Shown in pieces: positions 33,421 to 57,555 of a DNA stretch of 64,000 nucleotides. The stretch is taken from the NCBI GenBank assembly GCA_963697835.1, contig CAVOPG010000001.1:646803-710802 (forward strand), written 5' to 3'. The translations under genes and the position numbers were made by a program. Numbering within the stretch: the first letter of the stretch is position 1; every line of letters starts with the position of its first letter. The notes under the pieces are model-generated. The model was not told the origin of the DNA. It did no database searches and saw only the letters and a list, made by a program, of their open reading frames with translations. The DNA is from an uncultured Acidobacteriota bacterium. GTDB lineage: Bacteria; Acidobacteriota; Vicinamibacteria; Fen-336.

Positions 33421-33664
33421 GGCAGTAGCTGAGGTAGCGGCGCCCGGGCCCACCGGAGCGGCGGCTCCGGAGGGCTCCCGGGCGGGTCCGATCGGACGCA
33501 TCTCAGGACCCGCCTGGGATCCCGGACCGCCGCGGAATTCTCGGGCCACAGGAGCGGCTCGAAAACGGGGCAGAGCGAGGGGTGCGACTGGAGCCACATC
33601 GGGCTTCGCCTGTACCTAATCGTCGCTGGCGCCCCGGCTGGAGTCGTTCGGGGTATCCTGGGAC

Positions 33665-34054
33665 ATGGAGCGGGTTCCCGCGATCAAGGTGCTGCTGCTG
33701 CCCAAGGACACGAACGCCCTGGGCACGATCTTCGGCGGCGTCATCCTGTCCCACATCGACCTCGCCTCGGCGGTCGAGGCCCGGAAGACCTCGGCCCGCC
33801 GCTGGGTCACGAAGGCGATGCGGGAGGTCGAGTTCCACGAGCCGGTCTACCTCGGGGACATCGTGAGCTTCTTCACCGAGACCGTCCGGGTGGGCCGCAC
33901 GTCCATCACGGTCAAGGTCTCGGTGGAGGCCGAGCGGTGGGGCGGGGGCCACGGCGAGCACGTGAAGGTCACCGAGGCCGAGGTCATCCTGGTGGCGGTG
34001 GACGAGGCGGGCCGGCCGGCGCCGATCCAGCCGGGCGTCTCGACGGTCGCGTAG
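33665..34054 (+). CDS. Acyl-CoA thioesterase (hotdog fold, YciA-like)
   Basis: LLPKDTNALGTIFGGVILSHIDLA...VEFHEPVYLGDIV. Confidence 0.88.
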   Translation: MERVPAIKVLLLPKDTNALGTIFGGVILSHIDLASAVEARKTSARRWVTKAMREVEFHEPVYLGDIVSFFTETVRVGRTSITVKVSVEAERWGGGHGEHVKVTEAEVILVAVDEAGRPAPIQPGVSTVA

Positions 34055-34064
34055 GGCCTCCGCG

Positions 34065-36161
34065 ATGAGCGCGCCTGCCCTCGTCCCGACCCGCCGTCGA
34101 CTGAAGGTCGTCTGCCCGCACGACTGCCCGGACACGTGCGTGATGACGGTGGACGTGGAAGAGGACCGGGCCGTCGCGATCGGCGGCGACCCCGACCACC
34201 GCTTCACGCAGGGCTTCCTCTGCGCCAAGGTCAACCACTACCTCGAGCGCGTGTACAGCCCCGAGCGCGTGCTCCACCCGATGCGGCGGGCGGGCCGGAA
34301 GGGCGAGGGCCGGTTCGAGCGGATCTCGTGGGACGAGGCGCTCGACACGGTGGCGAGGCGCTTGCGGGAGATCGCCACCGCGCACGGGCCGCAGGCCATC
34401 CTGCCCTACTCCTACGCGGGCAACATGGGCCTGCTCGGCTACAGCAGCATGGACCGGCGCTTCTTCCACGCGCTCGGGGCGAGCCTCCTCGACCGGACGA
34501 TCTGCTCGTCGGCCGGAGGGCACGGCTTCAAGGCCACCGTCGGGAAGATGATGGGCTTCGACCCCGAGGCCGTCGTGAACGCCCGGCTCATCGTGGCCTG
34601 GGGCGCGAACATCGTCAGCTCGAACGTGCACCTGTGGCCCTTCGTCGAGGAGGCGCGGCGGCGGGGGGCGCGGCTCGTTTGCGTGGACCCCTTCCGCTCG
34701 CGCACGGCCGAGAAGTCCGACCGCCACCTCGCCCCGTTCCCGGGACCGACGCCGCTCTCGCGCTCGGGATGATGCACGTCATCTTCCGCGACGGCCTCGA
34801 GGATCGAGACTGGCTCGAGCGGCACTCGGTCGGCCACGAGGAGCTGCGGGAGCGGGCGCGCGAGTGGACGCCCGCGCGCGCCGCCGGCGACGACCGGCCT
34901 GCCGCGCGGAGGAGATCGAGAGCTTCGCGCGCGAGTACGCCACCACGCGGCCGTCGGCCATCCGCCTCAACTACGGCCTCAACCGGCACGGCGGCGGCGG
35001 GATGGCGGTGCGGACCGTGGCCTGCCTCCCGGCGGTCGTGGGCGCCTGGCGCGACGTCGGCGGGGGCGCGCTCCTCTCGACCTCGGGTACCTTCCCGGTG
35101 GACTCCGTCGCCCTCGAGCGGCCGGACCTCGTCCCGCCCGGGACGCGCACCCTCAACATGAGCCAGCTCGGGCGCATCCTGACCGACGCGACGCTCGACC
35201 CACCGGTGAAGGCGCTCTTCGTCTACAACTCGAACCCGGCGGCCGTCGCGCCGGAGCAGGACGCGGTCCGGCGCGGTCTCGCGCGCGAGGACCTGTTCGT
35301 CGTCGTCCACGAGCAGTTCCAGACCGACACCGCCGACTTCGCGGACATCCTCCTTCCGGCCACCACGACGCTCGAGCACTACGACATCCACAAGGCCTAC
35401 GGGCACCTCTACGTCAGCCTCAGCCGCCCGGCGATCGCCCCGCTCGGCGAGGCGCTGCCGAACACCGAGCTCTTCCGCCGGCTCGCCGCGCGCCTGGGGC
35501 TCGACCACCCGTGCCTGCGCGACACGGACGAGCAGATGGCGCGGCAGGCCTTCAAGTGGGATCACCCCTTCATGAAGGGGATCAGCTTCGAGCGGCTGGA
35601 GCAGCGAGGGCTCGGTGCGCCTGAGCGTGCCCGACCCGTTCGCTGCCGTTCGCCGAGGGCGGCTTCCCCACGCCCTCGGGCAAGTGCGAGCTGCGGTCGG
35701 AGACGCTCGCCGCCGAGGGGCACGACCCCGTGGCCGGCTACGTGCCGCCGCGCGAGGGGCCCACGAGCGCGCCGGAGCTGGCGAAGCGCTACCCGCTCGC
35801 GTTCATCTCGCCCCCCGCCCACCACTTCCTGAACTCGACGTTCTCCGCGCAGCCGGTGTTCGTGCGGCGCGAGGGCGAGGCGAGCGTCACGATCCACCCC
35901 GGGGACGCCGCCCCGCGCGGGATCGCCGAGGGGGCGATGGTGCGGGTCTTCAACGACCGCGGCTCCTTTCTGGCCCGGGCCCGGGTCTCCGACGCGTCCC
36001 GGCCGGGGGTCGTCGTGGGCCTCTCGATCTGGTGGGCCAAGCTCTGCCCGGGCGGCCGCAACGCCAACGCCGTCACCAGCCAGGCGCTCACGGACATGGG
36101 CGGCGGCGCGACGTTCTTCGACGCGCTCGTGGACGTCGCCCCGGAAGGGGTCAGATCTTGA
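34065..36161 (+). pseudogene. Cytoplasmic molybdopterin (bis-MGD) oxidoreductase, broken by at least 5 frame breaks (decay or sequencing error)
   Basis: No signal peptide. CPHDCPDTC...C FeS motif. Motifs [92 protein letters not shown]. Breaks near 34745, 34885, 34903, 35610 and 35648. The last 4 codons and the stop lie inside the palindromic element at 36147. Confidence 0.8.
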
Positions 36162-47499: not shown

Positions 47500-49246
47500 A
47501 TGAGCCCACTCCGGCGCCTTCCCTTGCTCGCCGCCCTGTCGCTGCTCGTCGCCTTGCCGACGCTCGCCGGGGATTCCGCACGGCTTCGCATCGCGGTGCG
47601 GTTTCCGGCGTCGGCGAGCCCGGAGGCGCTCGACGGCCGGCTGCTGCTCCTGCTGTCGACCGACCCCTCGGCGGAGCCGCGCTTTCAGGTGAACGACACG
47701 AACGTCGCGAAGAGCCAACAGGTCTTCGGCATCGACGTGGATGGCTGGAAGCCGGGCGAAGAGGCGGTCTTCGACGGGAGCGTCCTCGGCTACCCGGCGG
47801 AGGGCCTCGGCGACGTGAAGGCCGGCACGTACCGTGTCCAGGCCCTCCTCCATCGCTACGAGACCTTCCGCCGGGCGGACGGCCACGTCGTGAAGCTTCC
47901 CATGGACCGTGGCGAGGGACAGCAGTGGAACCGGGCGCCGGGAAACCTGATCAGCAGCCCGCGGGAGCTCGCGATCGACCCCGCGAAGGACGACGTCGTG
48001 AGGATCGAGCTCGACAAGTCGATCCCGGCCATTCCCCCGCCGAAGGACACGAAGTACGTCAAGCACGTTCGCATCCAGAGCGACCGGCTCACGAGGTTCT
48101 GGGGGCGGCCCATGCACCTGGGGGCGGTCGTGCTCCTGCCCCACGGCTTCGACGAGCACCCGCAGTCCCGCTACCCGCTCGTCGTCTTCCACGGGCACTT
48201 CCCGCACACGTTCGACGACTTTCGCGAGGAGCCACCGGACCCGAGCCTGCCCTGCGAGTACTCGGAGAGGTTCCACCTCGCCTGCTACAACCGGATCCAG
48301 CAGGAGCAGGCGCACCAGCTCTTCGAGGACTGGACGGGCCCCGGCTTCCCCCGGTTCATCGTCGTCCAGATCCAGCACGCGAATCCCTACTACGACGACT
48401 CGTACGCCGTGAACTCCGAGAACCTGGGGCCCTACGGCGACGCCATCCAGAGAGAGCTCCTCCCGTTCGTCGAGAAGAGCTTCCGCGGTCTCGGCCAGGG
48501 CTGGGCGCGCTTCACGTACGGTGGATCGACGGGCGGCTGGGAAGCGCTCGCGGTCCAGGTGCTCTACCCGGACGAATGGAACGGCTGCTGGGCCGCGTGC
48601 CCCGACCCCATCGACTTCCGCGCGTACGTGACGACGAACCTCTACGAGGACGGGAACGCTTACTACGCCGAGGGGCCGTTCGGCCGCGTGGCGCGGCCCG
48701 CCTTCCGCAACTGGCTGGGCCACGTGTCGGCGACGCTTCGAGCAGTCCAACCAGGCCGAGCTGGTGCTGGGCACGAAGACCCGCTCCGGGAGGCAGTTCG
48801 ACGTCTGGGAGGCCGTCTACTCCCCGGTGGGAGAGGACGGCTACCCGAAGCGGATCTTCGACAAGCGCACCGGTGTCGTCGACCGCGGCGTGGCCGAGCG
48901 CTGGCGGGAGGGCTACGACCTCCGCCACATCCTCGAGCGCGACTGGGCGAAGGGACTCGGCCGGAAGCTCGAGGGCAAGATCCACATCTACGTCGGCGAC
49001 ATGGACAACTACTACCTGAACAACGCCGTCTACCTGACCGAGGACTTCCTGAAGACGACAAGCAACCCGCCCTACGGCGGCGAGGTGGACTACGGCGACC
49101 GGGCCGAGCACTGCTGGAACGGCGATCACACGCGAGAGAACGCCTACTCGCGCCTGCGCTACATCCAGATGTTCGCCCCGAAGATCGTGGAGCGGATCGA
49201 GAAAAGCGCGCCTCCGGGGGCCGACCTCACGAGCTGGCGGTACTGA
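47500..49246 (+). CDS. Secreted esterase-family alpha/beta hydrolase (frame break near ~48738)
   Basis: GGAGGAG plus ATG. Signal peptide MSPLRRLPLLAALSLLVALPTLAG. GxSxG motif in YGGSTGGWEAL. The sequence continues sensibly in ORF 48764..49246. Confidence 0.75.
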
Positions 49247-49249
49247 TCG

Positions 49250-50511
49250 TCACCGGCTTCGCTCCCGGGTGACGAGGTCCGCCCGTGGGCGGATGAGCAG
49301 GACGAGGACGATCGAGACGACGGCGGCGCTGGCGAAGACGCCGAAGATGACGTTGAGCGGCACGGCGCGGTCGCGCAGCGCGCCGAAGCCCCAGTCGGCG
49401 AGCCCGCCGCAGCTGATGCTCACGAGGTTCATGACGCCGTAGCCGGTGGCGCGCAGCTCCGGCGGCACGATCTGGCACAGGATGGGCATGTTGTTGCAGT
49501 CGAAGAAGCCCCAGCCGAGGCCGAAGAGCGATGAGGAACGCCACGGCCACCGCGAGCGAGCCGGCGTTGCCCACGCCGAAGATCGCGGGGACGATCAGGC
49601 TCATGCCGATGGCGCTGACGAAGATGCGCCCGCGGTCGTGCCGCCGCATCCAGCGGTCCGCCAGCCAGCCGCCGGCAAGGGCGCCGACGATGGCCGCGAC
49701 CTGCCAGTAGAGCGTCGCCGCGACGCCGGCCTGGCCCTGGCCGATGTCGAACTGCTGCTTGAGGATCGCCGGCATCCAGTCGCGCACGACCCAGCCCGCC
49801 AGCGCCGGCAGCGTGAAGTAGAGCACCAGCAGGATGAAGGAGAGGTTGGTGAGCAGCTCCCGCGCGGCGCGGCCAGGGGAGGGCTTCGGCGCCGGGGCGG
49901 CGCGCGGCTCCCTTCGGGCGCGTCGCGCAGCAGGAGCGACGAGCGGCAGCGCGTAGAGCATGCCGAAGACGCCGCAGGCGTCGAAGGCGAACCGCCAGCC
50001 CAGGTGCGGCGCGTCGGCCACGTAGCCGCCGAAGCCGCCGACGATCACGCCGCAGTAGATGGCCATCTGGTGCAGCCCCACCGCCCGCGAGCGCGTGGGG
50101 CCGGCGTGGTAGTCGGCGATGAGCGCCAGCGCCGCCGGGATGTAGAAGGCCTCGCTGATCCCCATGAGCGAGCGGGCCAGGAGCAGCTCGTCGTAGCGTC
50201 GTGACGTGCCCGGTCCACCACGTCACCGCCGACCACACGAAGAGGCTGCCGCAGATCGTGAGCCGCCGGCTGAACCGGTCCGCCACGTAGCCGCCGATGG
50301 GGCTGAGGAAGGCGTAGACCCACTTGAACTGCCCGAGCATGAAGCCCCAGTTCGCCTCCGTGCCGATGCTGGGGATGTCCGCCATCACCGAGTACTTCAT
50401 CGACGCGAGCATCTGGCGGTCGAGGTAGTTCAGCAGCGCCACCGGCCAGAGCAGGACGACGACCAGCCACGCGGTGCGGAGGAGCGTCGACGAGGGGGAG
50501 AGCCTGGACAC
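49250..50511 (-). CDS. MFS transporter (at least 2 frame breaks)
   Basis: LNYLDRQMLA, GGYVADRFSRR and further TM segments are spread over ORFs 49429..50511, 49227..50165 and 49250..49489. Confidence 0.8.
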
Positions 50512-50854: not shown

Positions 50855-51106
50855 ATGTACGGACCGGACGGGCCGGACACGTTCTGGCTGAACTTCACGA
50901 ACATCGCGCTCGGGCTCGTGACTCTCCTGTGCGTGCTCGTCATCGTCGGCGGGGTGGCGCGGGAGCTCCTCCATCGCTGGGAGCGGCGCGCGCTCGCCCG
51001 GGAGGACGACCACGCCTTCGCGACGCCGGGCCTCGGCGTGACCATGGCCGACGGCGGCGAGCGCGTCGAGAAGCCCGCGCCCGCCGCTCCGAAGTCCCGC
51101 TCCTAG
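50855..51106 (+). CDS. Small single-pass membrane protein (83 aa), first gene of the 50855-57555 operon
   Basis: ATG at 50855. One TM (NIALGLVTLLCVLVIVGGV). 22 nt upstream of the next gene. Confidence 0.5.
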   Translation: MYGPDGPDTFWLNFTNIALGLVTLLCVLVIVGGVARELLHRWERRALAREDDHAFATPGLGVTMADGGERVEKPAPAAPKSRS

Positions 51107-51128
51107 CGCGCGAGCGAGGGATCGACTC

Positions 51129-52088
51129 GTGCGCTGCCCATTCCTCCGCGAGGAGCAGGTGAAGTCCTGCCAGGCCGCGCCCTTCCGCAACAGCCTGGCC
51201 CGCTCCGCCGCCACCGGCGAGGGCGAGCGCTGCACGTCGCCTGGGCACGCGAGCTGCCCGGTGGCGCCCCACAGCCGCGAGGCGCACCCGGACGCCTCGC
51301 GCTGCCCGTTCCTGCGGGAGTCGCTCGTCCAGTTCTGCGCCGCCTCCCCGCGGGCGTCCTACGTGCCGTGGAGCGAGTCAGAGGACCTGCGCTGCGCGCA
51401 CGACGGCCACCGCTTCTGCGCGCTGTTCCTCGCCGCGGCCGGCGCCGCCGCGCGCGGGCCCGCCCTGCCCGCCCCCGACTACCCGGAGGAGGCGGAGACG
51501 GCAGACGTCGAAGGCATCCCGGTGCCGGGGTGGCTCTTCTACGCCGACAACCACATGTGGCTCGACCAGGGCGACGACGGCCTCTGCCACGTCGGGGTGG
51601 ACGCCTTCCTGGCGCGGCTCGTCGGCAAGGTGGAGCGGCTCACGTTCCTCACCGTGAAGGGCGACGTCCGGCCCGCGGTCGTGCTCACGGTGCGCGGGGT
51701 GGACCTCACCCTCGTCTTCGCGCGGCCCCTGCCGCTCGTCGCCGCCAACACGCGGCTGCGCTCCGGCCTCGAAAGCCTGACCGCCGACCCGTACGGCCTC
51801 GGCTGGCTCTTCACCGCGCGGTGGGACGAAGGTCGCCGCCGGCGGCCCGAGCCGCCGCTCACCGCCGGCCTGCGCTGCGGCCGCGCGGCGCGCCAGTGGA
51901 TGGCGTCCGAGGTCCGCCGCCTGAGCACCGCCGTCCACGAGCGCTTCCTGCCCCGCCAGCCCGGGATGGCGCTTCCCGCCGACGGCGGCGACCCGGCCCC
52001 CGGCTTCCTGAATCACCTCGAGCACGAGGACGTGCTGCAGCTCTTCGCCGCGTTCTTTCCCCTCCCCGACGCCCGGAGGACCACATGA
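51129..52088 (+). CDS. Soluble Cys-rich protein with duplicated RCPFLRE 4-Cys module and GcvH-fold domain lacking the lipoyl lysine
   Basis: GTG at 51129. RCPFLREEQVKSC...C.......C is repeated as RCPFLRESLVQFC...C......C. GcvH-like core: YADNHMWLDQGDDGLCHVGVDAFLARLVGKVERL...ADPYGLGWLF, with TVRGVD where GcvH has the E-x-V-K lipoyl site. Confidence 0.7.
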   Translation: MRCPFLREEQVKSCQAAPFRNSLARSAATGEGERCTSPGHASCPVAPHSREAHPDASRCPFLRESLVQFCAASPRASYVPWSESEDLRCAHDGHRFCALFLAAAGAAARGPALPAPDYPEEAETADVEGIPVPGWLFYADNHMWLDQGDDGLCHVGVDAFLARLVGKVERLTFLTVKGDVRPAVVLTVRGVDLTLVFARPLPLVAANTRLRSGLESLTADPYGLGWLFTARWDEGRRRRPEPPLTAGLRCGRAARQWMASEVRRLSTAVHERFLPRQPGMALPADGGDPAPGFLNHLEHEDVLQLFAAFFPLPDARRTT

Positions 52089-52630
52089 ACCGCCGCACTC
52101 TCCTCTTCTTCTCGGCCGGCCTCGCCCTCGCCCTCGTCCTGGGCTGGGTGGGCTTCCCCCGACTCCTCTACGCGCGGGCCGAGCAGCCGCTCCGCTTCGA
52201 CCACAAGCTCCACACCTCGGACAAGACCGGCTTCTCCTGCGCCGACTGCCACCCGATCGGCGAGAGCGGCCGCTTCGCGGGCATCCCGAGGATCGACAAC
52301 TGCGCGGGCTGCCACGCGGAGCCGCAGGGATCGTCGGCCGACGAGAAGCGCCTCGTCGAGGAGTTCGTCAAGCCGGGGCGCGAGATCCCGTGGCTCGTCT
52401 ACGCGCGGCAGCCCGAGAACGTGCGCTTCCCCCACGCGATCCACGTGAGGCGCGCCGGGATAGCGTGCGAGCGCTGCCACGGTCCGCACGGGGCGAGCGA
52501 GAGGCTGCCTTCCCACGAGACGAACCGCATCAGCGGCTACAGCCGGGACCTCTGGAAGATGAGCGACTGCGAGAGCTGCCACGCCGAGAGCCACCGCGGG
52601 CGGACGGCCTGCCTCGCCTGCCACAAGTAG
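52085..52630 (+). CDS. Membrane-anchored pentahaem cytochrome c, ActA-like
   Basis: ATGA overlap with the previous gene. N-terminal TM. Five CxxCH motifs (CADCH, CAGCH, CERCH, CESCH, CLACH) in the ActA-like spacing F.H..H...C..CH...AGIP....C.GCH...IPW......V.F.H..H. Confidence 0.88.
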   Translation: MNRRTLLFFSAGLALALVLGWVGFPRLLYARAEQPLRFDHKLHTSDKTGFSCADCHPIGESGRFAGIPRIDNCAGCHAEPQGSSADEKRLVEEFVKPGREIPWLVYARQPENVRFPHAIHVRRAGIACERCHGPHGASERLPSHETNRISGYSRDLWKMSDCESCHAESHRGRTACLACHK

Positions 52631-52640
52631 GAGCGACTCC

Positions 52641-54726
52641 ATGCCCTTCACCCGACGCGACATTCTCTGGGGCCTGGGGGGAGGGCTCGCCGGCGCCGCC
52701 CTCACCCCGGTCCCGTGGAAGCTCCTCGACGACACCGCCATCTGGACGCAGCGCCGCCACAAGCTGCCGGTTCCCCCGCGCGGCGAGGTCGCGTTCCACC
52801 CCGCCGCCTGCACGCTCTGCCCGGCCGGCTGCGCGCTGCGCGTGCGCTCGGTCGGAGCGCGGCCGGTGGCGGTGACCGGTGAGGCGAAGCACCCGCTCGC
52901 CGGCGGGGCGTGCGCCCTCGGCCTGACGCTCCACCACCTGGCCTACCACCCGTTGCGACTGACGGGGCCCGCCGTCCGGGAAAGCGGCCGGAAGCAGGAC
53001 GTCGCGCTCGACGAGGCGGTCGGCCGGATCGCGGCCGCCGCCGAGAGGGCGCAGAAAGCCGGCCGGCTGGTCATGGTCCTCGACCGGCGGCCGGGGCGTG
53101 TCGTCTCAACCGCCTGGCAGGAGCTCCTGGCGGCGCTCGCGCACGGCCTCTACGTGACGCGCTCCGGAGAAGGAGAGACGCTGGCCGTCCTGCAAACGGC
53201 ACTCCAGCCGCCGACACCCCTCGGCATCGACCTCGAGCGAACGCGAACGCTCGTGAGCTTCGGCACACCGGTGCTCGAGGGCTGGGGACGGCCGGGTCGC
53301 ATGCTGGCCGTGCGCCCGCGGCTGCACGTCGTGCAGATCGACGCGTGGCGCTCGCCCTCGGCGGTCCTCGCCGACTAGTGGGTCGAGATCGCGCCGGGCG
53401 GCGAAGGGCCGCTCGCCCTCGCCCTGGCGCACGTCATCGTGCGCGAGGAGCCGGCGCGGGCCGGCCAGGACGTGCAGGCGCTGCTGGCCGACTTCTCGCC
53501 TGTCCGCGTCGCCGAGCGCACCGGAATCGCGCCGGGTCGGATCGAGTCGCTCGCCCGCGCTCTCCGCGAGCGGGCCCCGGCCGTGGCGATCGGCGGCGGC
53601 GACCCCGGCGCCGGACCCCTGCCTCCGGACGCCGAGCGAGCGATCGCGCTCCTGAACGTGGTCCTCGGCAACGTCGGCCGCGAGGGTGGGTTCGTGCCGC
53701 GCCGCCCGCTGCCCGAAGACCGGACCGGCGTCGCCGGTGCGACCTTCGCCGCTCTCGAGGACGTGCCCGCCGGCTCGGTGGGCGTCCTGCTCCTCGACGG
53801 CGCCGACGACGGCCGCGCCCTGCCGTGGCCGCTCCTCCGCCGCGTGCTCGCGAAGGACGCGCTCGTCGTCAGCCTGTCCCCGTTCGACGTGCGGGCTCGC
53901 CGGCGAGGCCGTCTCTCCTCGTTCCCGCGCCCGGCGCCGCTCGAGGCCTGGGACGAGGTGCTGCCCACGGCCGACGCGTCCGCCGCCAGCTACGCCGTCG
54001 TGGCACCGGTGCTGTCCCGCGCCGGCGGGAGCGACCGACAGCGTGACGCTCGCCCAGCGCTTGGCCGCAGCGCTCGGCGTCGAGATCGGCAAGGCGACGC
54101 ACGAGGAGCGGCTGCGGGGGCGCGTCGCCGCGATCCACGCGGCGCACCGCGGCCGGCTCGTCGCGCGCCAGGCGGGCGGGTACGCCGACGAGACGCCCGC
54201 CGACGCCAGCGCGATGTGGACGACACTCGTCGCCGGCGGCTGCTGGATCGACGAGCCGCAAGGTGCGACGCTCGTGGACGTCCGGTCGCCGCTGCCGTCG
54301 CTCGCCTCGCTCGAGGGCTGGATGAAACCCGCGGCGGGGGAGCCCGGACAGGTAGGCCTCGTGGCCTTCGCCGCGCGCGGCACGGCGGGCACGACGCCGG
54401 TTTCGCCGCTGCTCACGAAGCTCTACCAGGAGTCGGACCTGCGGCCCGTCGGCCGCGACGGCGGCGATGAGCCCGAAGACGGCCGAGCGCCTGGGCCTCG
54501 CCGACCGCCAGCCGGTCCGGATCGAGAGCGCGGCCGGCGCCGTCCGCGCCGAGCTGCGGATCGATCCGACTGCTCCCGCCGGAGAGGATCGCGCTCGCCG
54601 CCGGGCCCGACCCGGCCGCTCTGCACCCGGAGACGAGCACGAAAGCCAAAGGAGCCGTGCCCCTGGCGGTGAGCCGCGGCCGACGGCACCTGGCGAGAGA
54701 CCCGCGTCCGGGTCCGGGAGGCCTGA
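52641..54726 (+). pseudogene. Tat-exported MopB-family (molybdopterin oxidoreductase-like) subunit, interrupted by an in-frame TAG and at least 4 frame breaks
   Basis: Twin-arginine signal MPFTRRDILWGLGG. Intact C-x2-C-x3-C-x26-C motif (CTLCPAGC...C). In-frame TAG at 53376-53378 inside AD*WVEIAPG. Breaks near 54018, 54448, 54572 and 54672. Corrected C-terminus ...DGTWRETRVRVREA, stop at 54724-54726. Confidence 0.75.
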
Positions 54727-54729
54727 GCC

Positions 54730-55491
54730 ATGAACGCCCCCAAGACCGCAGGCGGCGCGCGCTACGGGATGGTCGTCGACCTCGACAAGTGCAACGGCTG
54801 CGGCGCGTGCGCGGTGGCCTGCGCCGTCGAGAACAACGTGCCGCCCGCGGCCGAGCGCGCGAACGACCGCAACGGCATCACCTGGATGCGCGTCCACCGG
54901 GTGGAAGCGCCCGGCGAGGCTCGCGCCGCCTTCGTCCCCATGATGTGCCAGCAGTGCGGCGACAAGACGCCGTGCGCGTCGGTCTGCCCGCAGAACGCGG
55001 TCGAGGTGGATCCCGCCTCGGGCATCGTCGGCCAGGTTCCGGTGCGCTGCCTCGGCTGCCGCTACTGCATGGCCGCCTGCCCGTACCACGCGCGGTCCTT
55101 CAACTGGTGGGACCCCGACTGGCCGGGCCGGCTGACGGAGACGCTCAACCCCGAGGTCTCGACCCGCACGCGCGGCGTCGTCGAGAAGTGCACGTTCTGC
55201 AGCCACCGGCTGCAGGCCGCCCAGGACGCGCAGGCCGCGGCGGGCGGCGAGACGAAGCCGCCCGAGTACACGCCGGCCTGCGTCGAGGCCTGCCCGGCCG
55301 GCGCGATCGTCTTCGGCAATCTCGACGATCCGGAGAGCGAGGCGGCACGCCTCGCGCGCGCTCCCGGCTCCTTCCGCCTCCTCGAGCGGCTGGGGACGGG
55401 GGCGAAGGTCTACTACCGCACCGAGCGCGACTGGGTGCGGCGCCTCGCCGACGGCGGCACCGCGGCCGGCGACGGGAGGACCCATGGATGA
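54730..55491 (+). CDS. 4Fe-4S dicluster subunit (PsrB/NrfC/ActB2/QrcC-like)
   Basis: YGMVVDLDKCNGCGACAVAC, MCQQCGDKTPCASVCP, CLGCRYCMAACP, KCTFCSHR, CVEACPAGA. Confidence 0.93.
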   Translation: MNAPKTAGGARYGMVVDLDKCNGCGACAVACAVENNVPPAAERANDRNGITWMRVHRVEAPGEARAAFVPMMCQQCGDKTPCASVCPQNAVEVDPASGIVGQVPVRCLGCRYCMAACPYHARSFNWWDPDWPGRLTETLNPEVSTRTRGVVEKCTFCSHRLQAAQDAQAAAGGETKPPEYTPACVEACPAGAIVFGNLDDPESEAARLARAPGSFRLLERLGTGAKVYYRTERDWVRRLADGGTAAGDGRTHG

Positions 55492-56728
55492 ACGACTCGT
55501 ACCGCGCGCGGCCTCGTCCCGCGCGCCCTTCTCCCGCTTCCTGCTCTGGCTCGTGCCGTGGGTGGCTCTCCTCGGCGTCGGGCTCTACGCCGCGTACCTC
55601 TGCCTCGCGCTCGGCCTCAACCAGACGAACATGGACAACCGCTTCGCGTTCGGTCTCTGGATCTACCTGGACCTGACGGTCATCGCGCTCGGGGCGGGGG
55701 CCTTCTTCACCGGCTTCCTCCTCTACGTGATGAAGAAGCGCGAGCTCAAGGCCGTCATCAACAGCGCGGTCGTGATCGGCTTCATCTGCTACTCGGGGGC
55801 GGTCGCGATCCTGGCGATCGACGTCGGCCAGCCCCTGCGGTTCTGGTTCACGTTCTGGCACCCGAACGTCCACTCGATGCTGACCGAGGTCACGTTCTGC
55901 CTGACCTGCTACCTGACGGTGCTGGCGATCGAGTACCTGCCCCTCGTCCTCAAGAACCGCCAGCTCCGGAAGCGCCCCTCGATGCTCGTCTTCGAGTTCG
56001 AGCTGCACAAGGTGATGGCCGTCTTCGCTCTCGTGGGGACGTTCCTCTCGTTCTTCCACCAGGGCTCGCTGGGCGGGCTCTACGGCGTACTCCAGGGACG
56101 GCCCTTCGCCTTCCGCGAGTCGCTCGCCGCCTGGCCCTCGACCTTCTTCCTCTTCATCCTCTCCGCCGCCGCGGTGGGGCCGAGCTTCGTCCTCGCCACC
56201 ACCTGGATCGTCTCGAAGGTCTCGGGGCGGCCGCTCGTCAAGCCAGAGGTCTTCGACCTCCTCGCCCGCGTCTCCGGGTCGCTTCTCGTCGTCTACGTCC
56301 TCGCCAAGACCGTGGACACGCTCGTCTGGATCAACCACACCTCGTTCCAGCTCGGCGTCCACCCGGCGCGCTTCTACGCCTTCTCTCCCTTCGGGACCTG
56401 GGCCCTCTTCACCGAGATCGTCCTCCTCGGCCTCGTCCCCGCTCTCCTCCTCGCCCTGCCGCGCACGAGGCGCGACCCGCGCTTCCTCGTCCCGGCGGCC
56501 TTCATGGCGTGCGCGGGCGTCGCCATGAACCGCTTCGTGATGACCGTGCAGACGCTGGCTCTGCCCACCCTCGCCTTCGACCGCTTCTTGTCCTACACCC
56601 CGAGCTGGCAGGAGGTGGCGAGCTTCCTCGCGGTGGTCGCCTACGGCGTCATCCTCTATTCCCTCTCCTTCCGCTACCTCAACCTCTTCCCGCAGGAGAG
56701 GGAGCTCTCCGCCGCCCCGGAGGTCTGA
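55484..56728 (+). CDS. NrfD/PsrC-family integral membrane quinone-interacting subunit (ActC/QrcD-like)
   Basis: 414 aa, about 10 TM helices. Typical N-terminal pattern FGLWIYLDLTVIALGAGAF. Overlaps the FeS gene by 8 nt. Confidence 0.88.
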   Translation: MDERLVPRAASSRAPFSRFLLWLVPWVALLGVGLYAAYLCLALGLNQTNMDNRFAFGLWIYLDLTVIALGAGAFFTGFLLYVMKKRELKAVINSAVVIGFICYSGAVAILAIDVGQPLRFWFTFWHPNVHSMLTEVTFCLTCYLTVLAIEYLPLVLKNRQLRKRPSMLVFEFELHKVMAVFALVGTFLSFFHQGSLGGLYGVLQGRPFAFRESLAAWPSTFFLFILSAAAVGPSFVLATTWIVSKVSGRPLVKPEVFDLLARVSGSLLVVYVLAKTVDTLVWINHTSFQLGVHPARFYAFSPFGTWALFTEIVLLGLVPALLLALPRTRRDPRFLVPAAFMACAGVAMNRFVMTVQTLALPTLAFDRFLSYTPSWQEVASFLAVVAYGVILYSLSFRYLNLFPQERELSAAPEV

Positions 56729-56729
56729 C

Positions 56730-57555
56730 ATGTTCCCCTGGTCACCCGAGTTCGTCTGGGACGCCACGCACGTCGCCTTCTTCGGGGCTCTCTACTCCGT
56801 CCTCGCCACGGTCGCGGGAAGCCTGGCCCTCGCCGCGTGGCGCGCCCGGCGCGACACCCGCCAGGACCGGGCCGCCGCGATCGCCTGGCACGGCGACTTC
56901 GACGAGCTGCCCCGCGTCCGCTCGCGCCTGCCGGCACCAGCTCACCGGCGAGGCCCCGGACCGCGCGTGCGAAGACGGCTTCGACTGCCGGCACTGCGCC
57001 GGGCACCCGCGCTTCGAAGAGCTTCGACACGAAGCGCCGGCAGCACCGCTCGCCGACCACTTCGGCTTCGACCTGCCCCTCGACCGTCTCTACCACCGAG
57101 GGCACACGTGGGTGCGGCCGGAGTCGGACGGCACCCTCACGGTCGGCCTCGACGACTTCGCCCGCCGGCTCGTAGGCACGCCCGAGCGGCTGGAGCTGCC
57201 GGCGCCCGGCACCCGGCTCGAGGTGAACGGCCCCGCCGGCCACCTCACCACCCACGGCAACGAGGTGCGCATCCTCTCTCCCGTGGACGGCGACGTCATC
57301 GAAGCGCACTCCGACGGCGCCGGCTTCACTCTGCGCGTCGATCCGGGCGGCATCACCGACCTCCGGCATCTCCTCAGCGGGGGCGAAGCGCGTGCCTGGG
57401 CTATCCGTGAGCTGGAGCGACTGCAGCGGGCCCTCGGCCCGGGCGAGCTGGGCGCAGCCCTCGCCGACGGCGGCGAGCTCGTGGCCGACGTGGGCGCCGC
57501 CCTGCCCCGCGACCGCTACGACGCCCTTCTCGGCGACATGCTGCTCGAGCCGTAG
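56730..57555 (+). CDS. Membrane-anchored Cys-rich GcvH-fold protein, paralogue of 51129..52088 (frame break near ~56925)
   Basis: One nt after the NrfD stop. TM: VAFFGALYSVLATVAGSLALAAW. Cys cluster: CRHQLTGEAPDRACEDGFDCRHC. GcvH-like core: YHRGHTWVRPESDGTLTVGLDDFARRLVGTPERL...ILSPVDGDVIE, with no Lys at the lipoyl position. Its helical tail resembles that of the first paralogue. Confidence 0.7.

What the first reader, a model, noticed from the sequence alone, without database searches (positions are those of the whole stretch)
50855..57555. Seven-gene operon: an ACIII/Qrc-like cytochrome-MopB-FeS-NrfD module bracketed by two Cys-rich GcvH-fold paralogues
Seen in the sequence:
- Seven same-strand genes have junctions of +22, -4 (ATGA), +10, +3, -8 and +1 nt, so they form one translationally coupled unit.
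- The core is a TM-anchored cytochrome with exactly five CxxCH motifs, a twin-arginine MopB-type subunit, a 4x[4Fe-4S]-type ferredoxin subunit and a 10-TM NrfD subunit.
- A soluble 319-aa protein sits directly upstream and a TM-anchored 275-aa protein directly downstream.
- Both flanking proteins share the same architecture: a Cys cluster, a GcvH-like barrel (H.W...G...VG.D.FA.RLVG..ERL) and a helical tail containing ADGG.
- In both, the position of the lipoylated Lys of true GcvH holds no Lys (TVRGVD and TTHGNEV).

Established knowledge: cytochrome c plus MopB-like plus FeS plus NrfD is the core of Alternative Complex III (ActA/B/C) and of Qrc (QrcABCD).

Differences from those complexes: no ActD/E/F equivalents are present, and the MopB and FeS parts are separate genes. 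The MopB subunit keeps a complete C-x2-C-x3-C-x26-C cluster motif and a Tat signal. That suggests a cofactor-bearing periplasmic enzyme rather than the cofactor-less ActB1 module.

Inference: this is a quinone-coupled periplasmic oxidoreductase of unknown substrate with a dedicated pair of cytoplasmic-side, non-lipoylated GcvH-fold Cys proteins. I cannot place the combination in any described complex.
Basis: partly seen in the sequence, partly recalled or inferred. Interest (0 to 1): 0.8.

Follow-up and report, generated by a model that had tools for sequence, protein, structure and literature searches.

The report
Qrc-type quinone complex with GcvH-fold partners
This is a Qrc-type respiratory membrane complex (cytochrome c to menaquinone) from a soil acidobacterium, and it always travels with three undescribed cytoplasm-side partner proteins, two of them non-lipoylated, cysteine-rich copies of the glycine-cleavage H-protein fold.

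Summary
The seven-gene unit is real, with the junctions reported. As sequenced, two genes are broken: the MopB gene has seven 1-nt insertions plus a TAG, and the last gene has one insertion. Neighbouring genes carry similar lesions, so assembly error is the likelier cause.

The four core genes are a divergent QrcABCD. NCBIfam's QrcA and QrcD models are met or nearly met; its QrcB and QrcC models are the best hits but fall below cut-off. Eighteen residues listed for D. vulgaris QrcD recur at a constant offset. Differences from the model complex: five hemes instead of six, and a conserved FS0 Cys4 motif in QrcB. PF00384 is not detected, so a molybdoenzyme is unlikely.

The GcvH-fold call holds for both flanking proteins (Foldseek E about 1e-7), and neither has the lipoyl lysine. 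They are paralogues. With the small membrane protein, they share a cytoplasmic (A/P)DGG motif.

The same seven genes, in the same order, occur in about 20 genomes of at least five phyla. Related GcvH-like proteins flank HmcBC-like FeS/NrfD modules elsewhere, some with an HmcD-like membrane helix.

Best reading: a Qrc-type quinone module with undescribed cytoplasm-side accessory subunits of unknown role. I found no paper describing them.

The parts
50855..51106 (+). g1: 83-aa single-pass membrane protein (predicted N-out, C-in) with the cytoplasmic motif P-x-L-G-x-T-M-A-D-G-G-E
   Evidence: ORF and start codon. One hydrophobic segment at residues 17-35, acidic before it and Arg-rich after it. 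The motif is conserved in 19 of the 20 aligned homologues and in the 91-aa protein of L086. No Pfam or NCBIfam family matches.
51129..52088 (+). g2: soluble 319-aa protein with an N-terminal Cys8 region (two repeats of CPFLxE-x5-C ... C-x7-C), a non-lipoylated GcvH-fold barrel, a long helix and an invariant ADGG tail
   Evidence: Intact ORF with a GTG start. Eight invariant Cys and A284-D-G-G287 in 25 homologues. AlphaFold2 barrel pLDDT 85-95; N-terminal 113 residues below 50. Foldseek against GcvH, E 8e-8. The lipoyl-Lys column holds R189/G190.
52085..52630 (+). g3: QrcA-like membrane-anchored pentaheme cytochrome c (181 aa)
   Evidence: NCBIfam QrcA equivalog 213 bits, cut-off 180. Five CxxCH motifs here and in all 22 related loci examined.
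52641..54726 (+). g4: QrcB-like MopB-family subunit with a Tat signal and an FS0 Cys4 motif. It is disrupted in this sequence by seven 1-nt insertions and one TAG; the reconstructed product is 693 aa.
   Evidence: Three-frame translation. Frameshift-aware alignments to L002 and L084. Nucleotide alignment to L084. NCBIfam QrcB is the best hit at 221 bits but below the 440 cut-off. Pfam finds Molybdop_Fe4S4 and Molydop_binding only, not PF00384.
53376..53378 (+). In-frame TAG inside g4; the closest intact relative has GAG (Glu) here
54730..55491 (+). g5: QrcC-like periplasmic protein with four ferredoxin-type cluster motifs (253 aa) and no signal peptide of its own
   Evidence: NCBIfam QrcC is the best hit at 326 bits (cut-off 400); the next best is DsrO at 177. 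Pfam Fer4 families.
55484..56728 (+). g6: QrcD-like NrfD-family quinone-interacting membrane subunit (414 aa, about 10 TM helices)
   Evidence: NCBIfam QrcD 566.3 bits (cut-off 570); relatives score 570.3 and 577. Eighteen of the residues listed for D. vulgaris QrcD recur at a constant -7 offset and are invariant in the 22 aligned sequences (window plus 21 loci).
56730..57555 (+). g7: membrane-anchored (N-out, C-in) 274-aa protein with a Cys4 module (C-x12-C-x5-C-x2-C), a non-lipoylated GcvH-fold barrel, a long helix and a LADGG tail. One 1-nt insertion near 56916 breaks the frame in this sequence.
   Evidence: The reconstruction matches intact 273-274 aa homologues at up to 89% identity. Pfam GCV_H 35 bits. 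AlphaFold2 mean pLDDT 83.7. Foldseek against GcvH, E 5e-8. Motif conservation.

Best explanation
The locus encodes a Qrc-type respiratory module plus three conserved cytoplasm-side accessory proteins.

Core (well supported):
- QrcA is a membrane-anchored pentaheme cytochrome c. It exchanges electrons with periplasmic carriers.
- QrcB is Tat-exported and MopB-like. It probably lacks Mo-bisPGD but keeps a Cys4 site for an FS0 cluster. It most likely carries the signal-less QrcC across the membrane with it (inferred).
- QrcC relays electrons through four FeS clusters to a menaquinone site of QrcD on the periplasmic side.
- By analogy with D. vulgaris Qrc, the protons for quinone chemistry would pass through QrcD from or to the cytoplasm, which would make turnover electrogenic. 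The direction of electron flow in this aerobe-like acidobacterium is not known.

Accessory part (inferred):
- g1 (a small TM protein), g2 (soluble, Cys8, GcvH fold) and g7 (TM-anchored, Cys4, GcvH fold) are all predicted to expose their conserved parts to the cytoplasm, and all carry an (A/P)DGG motif.
- I propose that they form a membrane-tethered assembly on the cytoplasmic face of QrcD.
- The GcvH barrel would act as a structural or docking fold rather than a lipoyl carrier. The Cys modules would bind a metal (Zn or an FeS cluster).
- The role would be regulatory or structural, for example sensing cytoplasmic redox state or covering the cytoplasmic mouth of the proton path. No heme or other cofactor spans the membrane, so they cannot receive electrons from QrcC directly.

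State of the sequence: the breaks in qrcB and g7 are most likely sequence errors, not gene decay.
For: Core:
- NCBIfam scores for QrcA, B, C and D.
- Eighteen residues listed for D. vulgaris QrcD, including D70, Y110, D120, S138, E142 and Y150, recur at a constant offset and are invariant.
- Five hemes, the Tat motif and the FS0 motif are conserved in the related loci.
- D. vulgaris Qrc is electrogenic through proton uptake from the cytoplasm (PMC6303296, PMC13059093).

Accessory proteins:
- The same seven genes occur in the same order in about 20 genomes. These include Acidobacteriota (several classes), Ignavibacteriota, Bacteroidota, Myxococcota and Krumholzibacteriia.
- The junctions are tight and each gene has its own ribosome-binding site.
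- g2 has no TM segment; g1 and g7 have one each, with Arg-rich stretches after the helix.
- The ADGG motif is conserved in all three.
- Beyond Qrc, the same triad or pairs of GcvH-like proteins flank Tat-FeS + HmcC-like NrfD modules that have no MopB. This is seen in Desulfobacterota, Bacteroidota, Gemmatimonadota, Planctomycetota and Anaeromyxobacter. The constant partner is therefore the FeS/NrfD pair.
- In that branch the membrane helix of the GcvH-like protein matches Pfam PF28260 'DVU_0533'. DVU_0533 is HmcD, a known small membrane subunit of the Hmc complex.

Errors rather than decay:
- Single-base insertions also break the neighbouring MFS gene (4 shifts) and esterase gene (1 shift).
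- A second MopB gene at 33.6-36.1 kb is likewise split over several frames.
- The relative L084 has all of the cluster and neighbouring genes intact.
Against: - No physical evidence links g1, g2 or g7 to QrcD.
- D. vulgaris Qrc is purified as four subunits, and a deletion is complemented by qrcABCD alone (PMC13059093). A Qrc complex can therefore work without such partners.
- Soluble tandem GcvH-like pairs exist with no FeS/NrfD genes within 10 kb, next to sigma-54 two-component systems and an archaemetzincin. The family is thus not obligatorily tied to NrfD.
- The HmcD-like domain is not detected in the window's own g7.
- Metal binding by the Cys modules is only inferred. The Cys region of g2 was modelled with pLDDT below 50.
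- The lesions are unevenly spread: none in 3.8 kb of g1, g2, g3, g5 and g6, against eight in qrcB. The inserted bases are not homopolymer extensions. Real decay of qrcB cannot be excluded.
Confidence: 0.5

Rival explanations
1. g1, g2 and g7 are dedicated biogenesis factors rather than subunits. As cytoplasmic, partly membrane-tethered Cys-rich proteins, they would hold or metallate the Tat-exported FeS subunit (and QrcB) before export. The comparison, from my own knowledge, is with FdhE, NapD or TorD-type proofreading chaperones.
For: - The one periplasmic component shared by all contexts is a Tat-dependent four-cluster FeS protein. It has its own Tat signal in L029, L086 and L088-L090, and would be carried by QrcB here.
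- The Cys-rich proteins are cytoplasmic.
- Canonical Qrc works with four genes only.
Against: - Two paralogues plus a third motif-bearing protein, two of the three membrane-anchored, are more than known proofreading chaperones need.
- An HmcD-like helix in relatives points to residence in the mature complex.
- The GcvH fold is not known as a Tat-signal binder (own knowledge).
Confidence: 0.22
2. The GcvH-like proteins are a signalling or regulatory device, for example a thiol- or FeS-based redox sensor. They would act on gene expression or on another target and merely be co-expressed with FeS/NrfD modules.
For: - In Desulfobacterota, Bacteroidota and Gemmatimonadota the GcvH-like genes are followed by a HAMP histidine kinase, a sigma-54 response regulator and an M54 peptidase.
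- Stand-alone tandem pairs sit in the same regulatory neighbourhood without FeS/NrfD genes.
- The Cys4 spacing C-x12-C-x5-C-x2-C recalls sensor-type clusters (own knowledge, untested).
Against: - No two-component system or peptidase lies next to the cluster in the window or in L084.
- No DNA-binding or signalling domain is present in g1, g2 or g7.
- Gene order inside the qrc operon is fixed across phyla.
Confidence: 0.13
3. One reading: the MopB subunit is an active Mo/W-bisPGD enzyme, and the complex is a quinone-coupled periplasmic oxidoreductase for an unknown substrate.
For: - The Tat signal and the complete FS0 Cys4 motif are conserved in every related locus where the true start could be read.
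- D. vulgaris QrcB is described as lacking any cofactor, so this protein differs from it.
- The score against the NCBIfam QrcB model is only half the cut-off.
Against: - PF00384 is not detected here or in intact relatives, although it is found in another MopB gene of the same window.
- The Mo-ligand Cys of PsrA aligns with Val (weak alignment).
- Some clade members have QrcB proteins of only about 556 aa.
- A QrcA-type cytochrome as the peripheral partner fits electron relay, not catalysis.
Confidence: 0.1
4. In this particular organism the cluster is decaying: qrcB and g7 are true pseudogenes and the complex is not made.
For: - There are eight lesions in qrcB and one in g7, but none in g1, g2, g3, g5 or g6.
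- The inserted bases are not homopolymer slips.
Against: - The same kind of single-base insertion breaks unrelated neighbours (MFS, esterase, a second MopB gene).
- After frame correction the product stays 84% identical to an intact relative over its full length, with no larger deletions.
- A related contig, L001, shows independent frame breaks in qrcB, qrcC and qrcD.
Confidence: 0.25

Closest known systems
QrcABCD, the cytochrome c3:menaquinone oxidoreductase of Desulfobacterota sulfate reducers (D. vulgaris DVU0692-0695)
   Same: - Same four subunit types in the same gene order: a TM-anchored multiheme cytochrome, a separate Tat-exported MopB-like protein, a four-cluster FeS protein and a 10-TM NrfD protein.
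- The NCBIfam QrcA model is met and the QrcD model is met or nearly met.
- The QrcD residues for quinone binding and the proton path are conserved.
   Different: - Five hemes instead of six.
- QrcB keeps an FS0 Cys4 motif, whereas the D. vulgaris protein is described as cofactor-free.
- QrcB and QrcC score below the NCBIfam cut-offs.
- The host is a Vicinamibacteria-like acidobacterium, and the window shows no sulfate-reduction, hydrogenase or cytochrome c3 genes among the 20 neighbouring ORFs scanned.
- Three extra conserved genes (g1, g2, g7) are not part of the described complex.
Alternative Complex III (ActABCDEF)
   Same: A pentaheme cytochrome, a cofactor-poor MopB-like module, an FeS module and a 10-TM NrfD-type subunit; the relationship to Qrc is noted in the literature.
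   Different: - MopB and FeS are separate genes, not a fused ActB.
- There are no ActD, ActE or ActF genes.
- The NrfD subunit scores as QrcD, then HmcC and HybB; no ActC model appears among the hits.
HmcABCDEF complex of Desulfovibrio, in particular HmcB/HmcC and the 5.8-kDa membrane subunit HmcD (DVU_0533)
   Same: - Relatives of g7 sit directly after an HmcC-like gene and carry an N-terminal helix matching Pfam PF28260 'DVU_0533'.
- This shows that a small helix next to this class of NrfD subunit is a known architectural element.
   Different: - There are no HmcA, HmcE (cytochrome b) or HmcF (CCG-domain) genes.
- The HmcD-like match is not detected in the window's own g7.
- HmcD itself has no GcvH domain.
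Glycine-cleavage H protein (GcvH) and lipoate-binding LbpA proteins of sHdr sulfur-oxidation clusters
   Same: Same barrel-sandwich fold (Foldseek TM about 0.75-0.8 normalised to GcvH) and the same HxW ... DPYGxGW sequence landmarks.
   Different: - No Lys at the lipoylation position.
- Scores are far below the NCBIfam GcvH cut-offs (17-35 bits against about 116).
- Extra Cys modules, a TM anchor and a roughly 90-aa helical tail with ADGG.
- No gcvT, gcvP, shdr or lipoate-ligase neighbours.

Membership tests
QrcABCD (NCBIfam equivalogs NF041781-NF041784) | QrcA model score at or above the curated cut-off (180 bits) | tested here: met
   213 bits for the window; 206 and 214 bits for the relatives L084 and L003.
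QrcABCD (NCBIfam equivalogs NF041781-NF041784) | QrcD model score at or above the curated cut-off (570 bits) | tested here: inconclusive
   The window scores 566.3, just below. The relatives L084 and L003 score 570.3 and 577.0. The next best family is HmcC at 118 bits.
QrcABCD (NCBIfam equivalogs NF041781-NF041784) | QrcB and QrcC model scores at or above the cut-offs (440 and 400 bits) | tested here: not met
   QrcB scores 221 bits (reconstructed window product) and 240 and 279 bits (intact relatives). QrcC scores 323-369 bits. Both are the best-scoring families.
QrcABCD | QrcD residues for quinone binding and the proton path (D70, Y110, D120, S138, E142, Y150 and others, D. vulgaris numbering) | tested here: met
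   Eighteen listed residues recur at a constant -7 offset and are invariant in the 22 aligned sequences (residue lists). The mapping is by offset, not by alignment to the D. vulgaris sequence, which I did not hold.
QrcABCD | Hexaheme QrcA and a QrcB without any redox cofactor | tested here: not met
   Five CxxCH motifs in all 22 loci. The FS0-type Cys4 motif is conserved wherever the true QrcB start could be read. Descriptions of the D. vulgaris proteins are. Whether a cluster is actually bound cannot be tested here.
QrcABCD | Oxidises type I cytochrome c3 and reduces menaquinone, electrogenically | not testable with these tools
   Biochemical property (PMC6303296). No cytochrome c3 or hydrogenase gene appears among the 20 neighbouring ORFs scanned.
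Alternative Complex III | Fused ActB (MopB-like + FeS), a second NrfD-type subunit ActF, and ActD/ActE | tested here: not met
   MopB and FeS are separate genes, there is a single NrfD gene, and no further cytochrome or membrane genes lie in the unit.
GcvH (glycine cleavage H protein) | H-protein fold | tested here: met
   Foldseek top hits are all GcvH, with E 8e-8 (g2) and 5e-8 (g7).
GcvH (glycine cleavage H protein) | Lipoylated Lys at the hairpin tip, and scores above the family cut-offs | tested here: not met
   The Lys column holds Arg/Gly in g2 and Gly in g7. NCBIfam GcvH scores are 17-35 bits against cut-offs of about 116.
Hmc complex (HmcD-like helix, Pfam PF28260 DVU_0533) | N-terminal membrane helix matching PF28260 | tested here: not met
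   PF28260 is listed in the collection's precomputed Pfam annotation for most distant relatives, but for none of the 120 close homologues of g7. The model is absent from the local Pfam copy, so g7 itself could not be rescored.

The most novel reading that the evidence does not exclude
The small ADGG protein and the two GcvH-fold Cys proteins form a previously unrecognised cytoplasm-side module of QrcD/HmcC-type NrfD complexes. This module would couple periplasmic quinone chemistry, or the cytoplasmic proton path, to a cytoplasmic thiol- or FeS-based process or signal. That would give heme-free NrfD complexes a functional link to the cytoplasm that current models lack.
Probability: 0.15. Interest if true: 0.85.

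Novelty: new variant of a known kind. Interest (0 to 1): 0.6.

Why it matters
NrfD-type modules sit in many anaerobic and aerobic respiratory complexes, and how they connect to the cytoplasm and conserve energy is still debated. A conserved three-protein, cytoplasm-side set that accompanies QrcD/HmcC-type modules across many phyla is a concrete, testable lead.

- It could be a missing set of subunits, a regulator of proton uptake, or a dedicated assembly system.
- It would also be a use of the GcvH fold without lipoate.
- Automatic annotation currently calls these genes 'glycine cleavage system H protein', which is misleading.
- The locus extends Qrc-type complexes, best known from sulfate reducers, to soil Acidobacteriota and other non-sulfate-reducing lineages, in a distinct pentaheme, FS0-retaining form.

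Tried and rejected
- **Selenocysteine or programmed recoding in the MopB gene.** The stop is TAG, not TGA. It replaces GAG of the nearest relative, and it is accompanied by seven plain insertions.
- **Rfam scan of 49-59 kb.** No RNA family found.
- **Promoter and terminator consensus scan.** No promoter-like site; three terminator-like sites, about as many as chance gives.
- **GC3 frame plot to count frameshifts across the window.** It could not separate gene boundaries from frame breaks, so I replaced it with alignments to the intact relative L084.
- **Search for natural fusions of the GcvH-like protein with NrfD or other domains.** Among 150 family representatives, the long hits were tandem GcvH copies, unrelated C-terminal domains or read-through gene calls.
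- **Known domains for the Cys regions.** Nothing in Pfam or NCBIfam.
- **PDB sequence search with QrcD.** No hit.
- **Literature.** Searches for GcvH + NrfD, and for glycine cleavage + QrcD/HmcC/menaquinone reductase, found nothing relevant. The MBNT15 paper mentions glycine cleavage only as metabolism. The original Qrc paper (PMC2906268) is not held.
- **Lipoyl-carrier function for g2 and g7.** Considered and rejected, because neither has a Lys at or next to the hairpin tip.

Full report
**1. What is in the sequence**

The window has about 72% G+C. On the + strand there are seven consecutive genes:
- g1, 50855-51106
- g2, 51129-52088
- g3, 52085-52630
- g4, 52641-54726
- g5, 54730-55491
- g6, 55484-56728
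- g7, 56730-57555

The junctions are exactly as reported: +22, -4 (ATGA), +10, +3, -8 and +1 nt. Each downstream gene has a GGAGG-type ribosome-binding site. The upstream neighbour, an MFS transporter, lies on the opposite strand.

Two of the seven genes are not open reading frames as sequenced.
- A three-frame translation shows that g4 changes frame repeatedly and contains an in-frame TAG at 53376-53378.
- Frameshift-aware alignment to intact homologues and a nucleotide alignment to the closest intact relative, L084 (87.4% identity), show seven single-base insertions at 53888, 53914, 53933, 54015, 54443, 54571 and 54672.
- The TAG replaces a GAG codon of L084.
- g7 has one extra base near 56916.

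**2. Error or decay?**

For sequence error:
- In L084 the whole cluster and its neighbours are intact.
- In the window, single-base frame breaks also hit the neighbouring MFS gene (four) and esterase gene (one).
- A second, unrelated MopB gene at 33.6-36.1 kb has its Pfam domains split over different frames.
- A related contig, L001, has independent breaks in qrcB, qrcC and qrcD.
- After correction, g4 is 84% and g7 84% identical to the L084 proteins over their full length. Corrected g7 matches intact 273-274 aa proteins at up to 89% identity.

Against:
- The lesions are patchy. There are none in g1, g2, g3, g5 and g6.
- The inserted bases are not homopolymer extensions.

I judge sequence error more likely, at about 0.7-0.75, but real decay is not excluded.

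**3. The core is a divergent QrcABCD**

NCBIfam equivalog models give the following scores:

| Subunit | Window | Intact relatives | Cut-off |
|---|---|---|---|
| QrcA | 213 | 206, 214 | 180 |
| QrcD | 566 | 570, 577 | 570 |
| QrcC | 326 | 323, 369 | 400 |
| QrcB | 221 (reconstructed) | 240, 279 | 440 |

- In every case the Qrc model is by far the best hit. No ActC model appears for g6.
- Using residue lists published for D. vulgaris QrcD, 18 residues recur in g6 at a constant -7 offset. They include D70, Y110, D120, S138, E142 and Y150, and they are invariant in the 22 aligned sequences.
- D. vulgaris Qrc reduces menaquinone at a periplasmic-side site with protons drawn from the cytoplasm, which makes it electrogenic. 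The conserved residues argue that the same chemistry applies here. The physiological direction is unknown.

Differences from the model complex:
- QrcA has five, not six, CxxCH motifs in all 22 loci.
- QrcB keeps a Tat motif and a C-x2-C-x3-C-x22-27-C motif. These Cys align with the FS0 ligands of PsrA. D. vulgaris QrcB is described as free of redox cofactors.

- PF00384 is not detected in g4 or in intact relatives, although it is found in the other MopB gene of the window.
- The Mo-ligand Cys of PsrA aligns with Val (weak alignment).
- Some clade members have QrcB proteins of only about 556 aa.

Acidobacterial qrcABCD has already been annotated, and its transcription reported, in a sulfate-reducing MAG. 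The core is therefore of a known kind.

**4. The flanking proteins**

*g2 (319 aa, soluble)*
- It has eight invariant Cys arranged as two repeats (CPFLxE-x5-C ... C-x7-C).
- These are followed by a barrel, a long helix and an invariant A-D-G-G.
- The AlphaFold2 barrel is confident (pLDDT 85-95). The Cys region is not (below 50).
- Foldseek returns only GcvH structures at the top (E 8e-8, TM about 0.8 normalised to the target).

*g7 (274 aa after correction)*
- It has one N-terminal TM helix, a conserved CRH-x3-G-x4-R-x-C-x3-FDC-x2-C module, the barrel, a long helix and LADGG.
- Its model has a mean pLDDT of 83.7, and again matches GcvH.

*Shared properties*
- The lipoyl-Lys column is Arg/Gly in g2 and Gly in g7.
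- The two are paralogues across barrel, helix and tail.

*New observation: g1*
- g1 (83 aa, one TM helix) carries P-x-L-G-x-T-M-A-D-G-G-E, conserved in 19 of the 20 aligned homologues.
- The charge distribution around the helices of g1 and g7 places their C-terminal parts in the cytoplasm, and g2 has no signal peptide or TM segment.
- So all three (A/P)DGG motifs are predicted to be cytoplasmic.

**5. Conservation**

- A scan of one genome per species with the g2 profile, followed by tblastn of all seven products, found the complete seven-gene order in about 20 loci. A few more are cut by contig ends.
- These loci come from several classes of Acidobacteriota, from Ignavibacteriota, Bacteroidota, Myxococcota and Krumholzibacteriia.
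- Identity to the window ranges from 61-79% for QrcD down to 31-40% for QrcB, 33-48% for g2 and 38-51% for g7.
- A profile search of 1.84 billion cluster representatives (50% identity) found 111 g7-type clusters at E <= 1e-30 and 1152 at E <= 1e-10.

**6. A wider pattern**

More distant GcvH-like proteins with the same xDGG tail flank simpler modules. These consist of a Tat-exported FeS protein with a C-terminal anchor and an HmcC-like NrfD protein (402 bits to HmcC). They have no MopB and no QrcA.
- Seen in Thermodesulfobacteriota, Planctomycetota, Vicinamibacteria, Ignavibacteriota and Anaeromyxobacter.
- Also seen in Bacteroidota, Gemmatimonadota and Desulfobacterota contigs.

L086 has the full triad:
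- a 305-aa protein beginning MEIRCPFLKEEKVAFC;
- a 91-aa TM protein ending ...LGITMADGGDR;
- a TM-anchored GcvH-like protein.

In this branch the N-terminal helix matches Pfam PF28260 'DVU_0533' in the collection's precomputed annotation. DVU_0533 is HmcD, the 5.8-kDa membrane subunit of the Hmc complex.

These clusters are usually followed by a HAMP histidine kinase, a sigma-54 response regulator and an M54 peptidase. Soluble tandem pairs carrying two C-x12-C-x5-C-x2-C modules sit in the same regulatory neighbourhood without FeS/NrfD genes.

The constant partner of the GcvH-like proteins is thus the FeS/NrfD pair of the QrcD/HmcC type. NrfD is the only part of that pair with a cytoplasmic surface.

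**7. Interpretation**

Shown:
- a Qrc-type module;
- GcvH fold without the lipoyl lysine;
- paralogy of g2 and g7;
- a shared motif in g1, g2 and g7;
- synteny across phyla.

Inferred:
- g1, g2 and g7 form a membrane-tethered, metal-binding assembly on the cytoplasmic face of QrcD, with a structural or regulatory role.
- They cannot be wired to QrcC, because nothing in the unit carries a redox cofactor across the membrane.

Rivals:
- dedicated assembly or Tat-proofreading factors;
- a redox-sensing or signalling device;
- true pseudogenisation in this organism.

D. vulgaris Qrc works as four subunits, so these partners are an addition in certain lineages rather than a general requirement.

**8. 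Novelty**

The searched papers contain no description of GcvH-like proteins with Qrc, Hmc or NrfD modules. Automatic annotation calls them 'glycine cleavage system H protein'. I rate this a new variant of a known kind, of moderate to good interest.

Noticed in passing
window 33626-36137 (+): A second MopB-family gene, this one with a clear PF00384 Molybdopterin domain and an Fe4S4 domain. It is split over at least three reading frames: the pieces 34101-34739 and 34909-35604 are in different frames.
   Followed up: partly
window 47500-49272 (+) and 49227-50511 (-): The esterase-like gene has one frame break (48739) and the MFS transporter gene has four (50196, 49937, 49881, 49529) relative to the intact genes of L084. 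Most are single-base insertions. This suggests an insertion-rich consensus error profile in patches of the window.
   Followed up: yes
L086 5917-15189; L088 3395-11714; L089 173-8043; L090 3994-12385: A recurrent cluster in Desulfobacterota, Bacteroidota and Gemmatimonadota. It holds two to four GcvH-like genes around a Tat-FeS + HmcC-like NrfD pair, with a HAMP histidine kinase, a sigma-54 response regulator and an archaemetzincin (Peptidase_M54). The role of the peptidase, and any link to the xDGG motif, is unexplained.
   Followed up: partly
L086 8001-8696 and homologues in L029, L037, L088, L089, L090: The HmcD-anchored GcvH-like proteins keep a conserved D-S/A-K one residue after the column of the canonical lipoyl lysine. 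Whether this lysine is modified is unknown. The window's g2 and g7 have no such lysine.
   Followed up: partly
L034 9542-11591; L040 9491-11462; L043 9131-10726: Desulfobacterota carry tandem soluble GcvH-like proteins, most with two C-x12-C-x5-C-x2-C modules. They sit next to an archaemetzincin and a sigma-54 two-component system, with no FeS/NrfD genes within 10 kb.
   Followed up: partly
L002 14418-17327: In this related contig the cluster stops about 66 codons into qrcD and is followed by biotin carboxylase and biotin-carrier genes on the other strand. This is either a rearrangement or an assembly join.
   Followed up: no
L001 1-2369: Two large multiheme cytochrome c genes (385 and 622 aa) lie about 8 kb upstream of the cluster in a related 798-kb contig. 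They could be periplasmic redox partners, but nothing similar is seen in the window.
   Followed up: no
P0390 (421 aa), P0331 (413 aa): Some family members contain two GCV_H domains in one polypeptide, that is, a tandem fusion of the usually separate paralogues. This would fit the idea that the two act as a pair.
   Followed up: no
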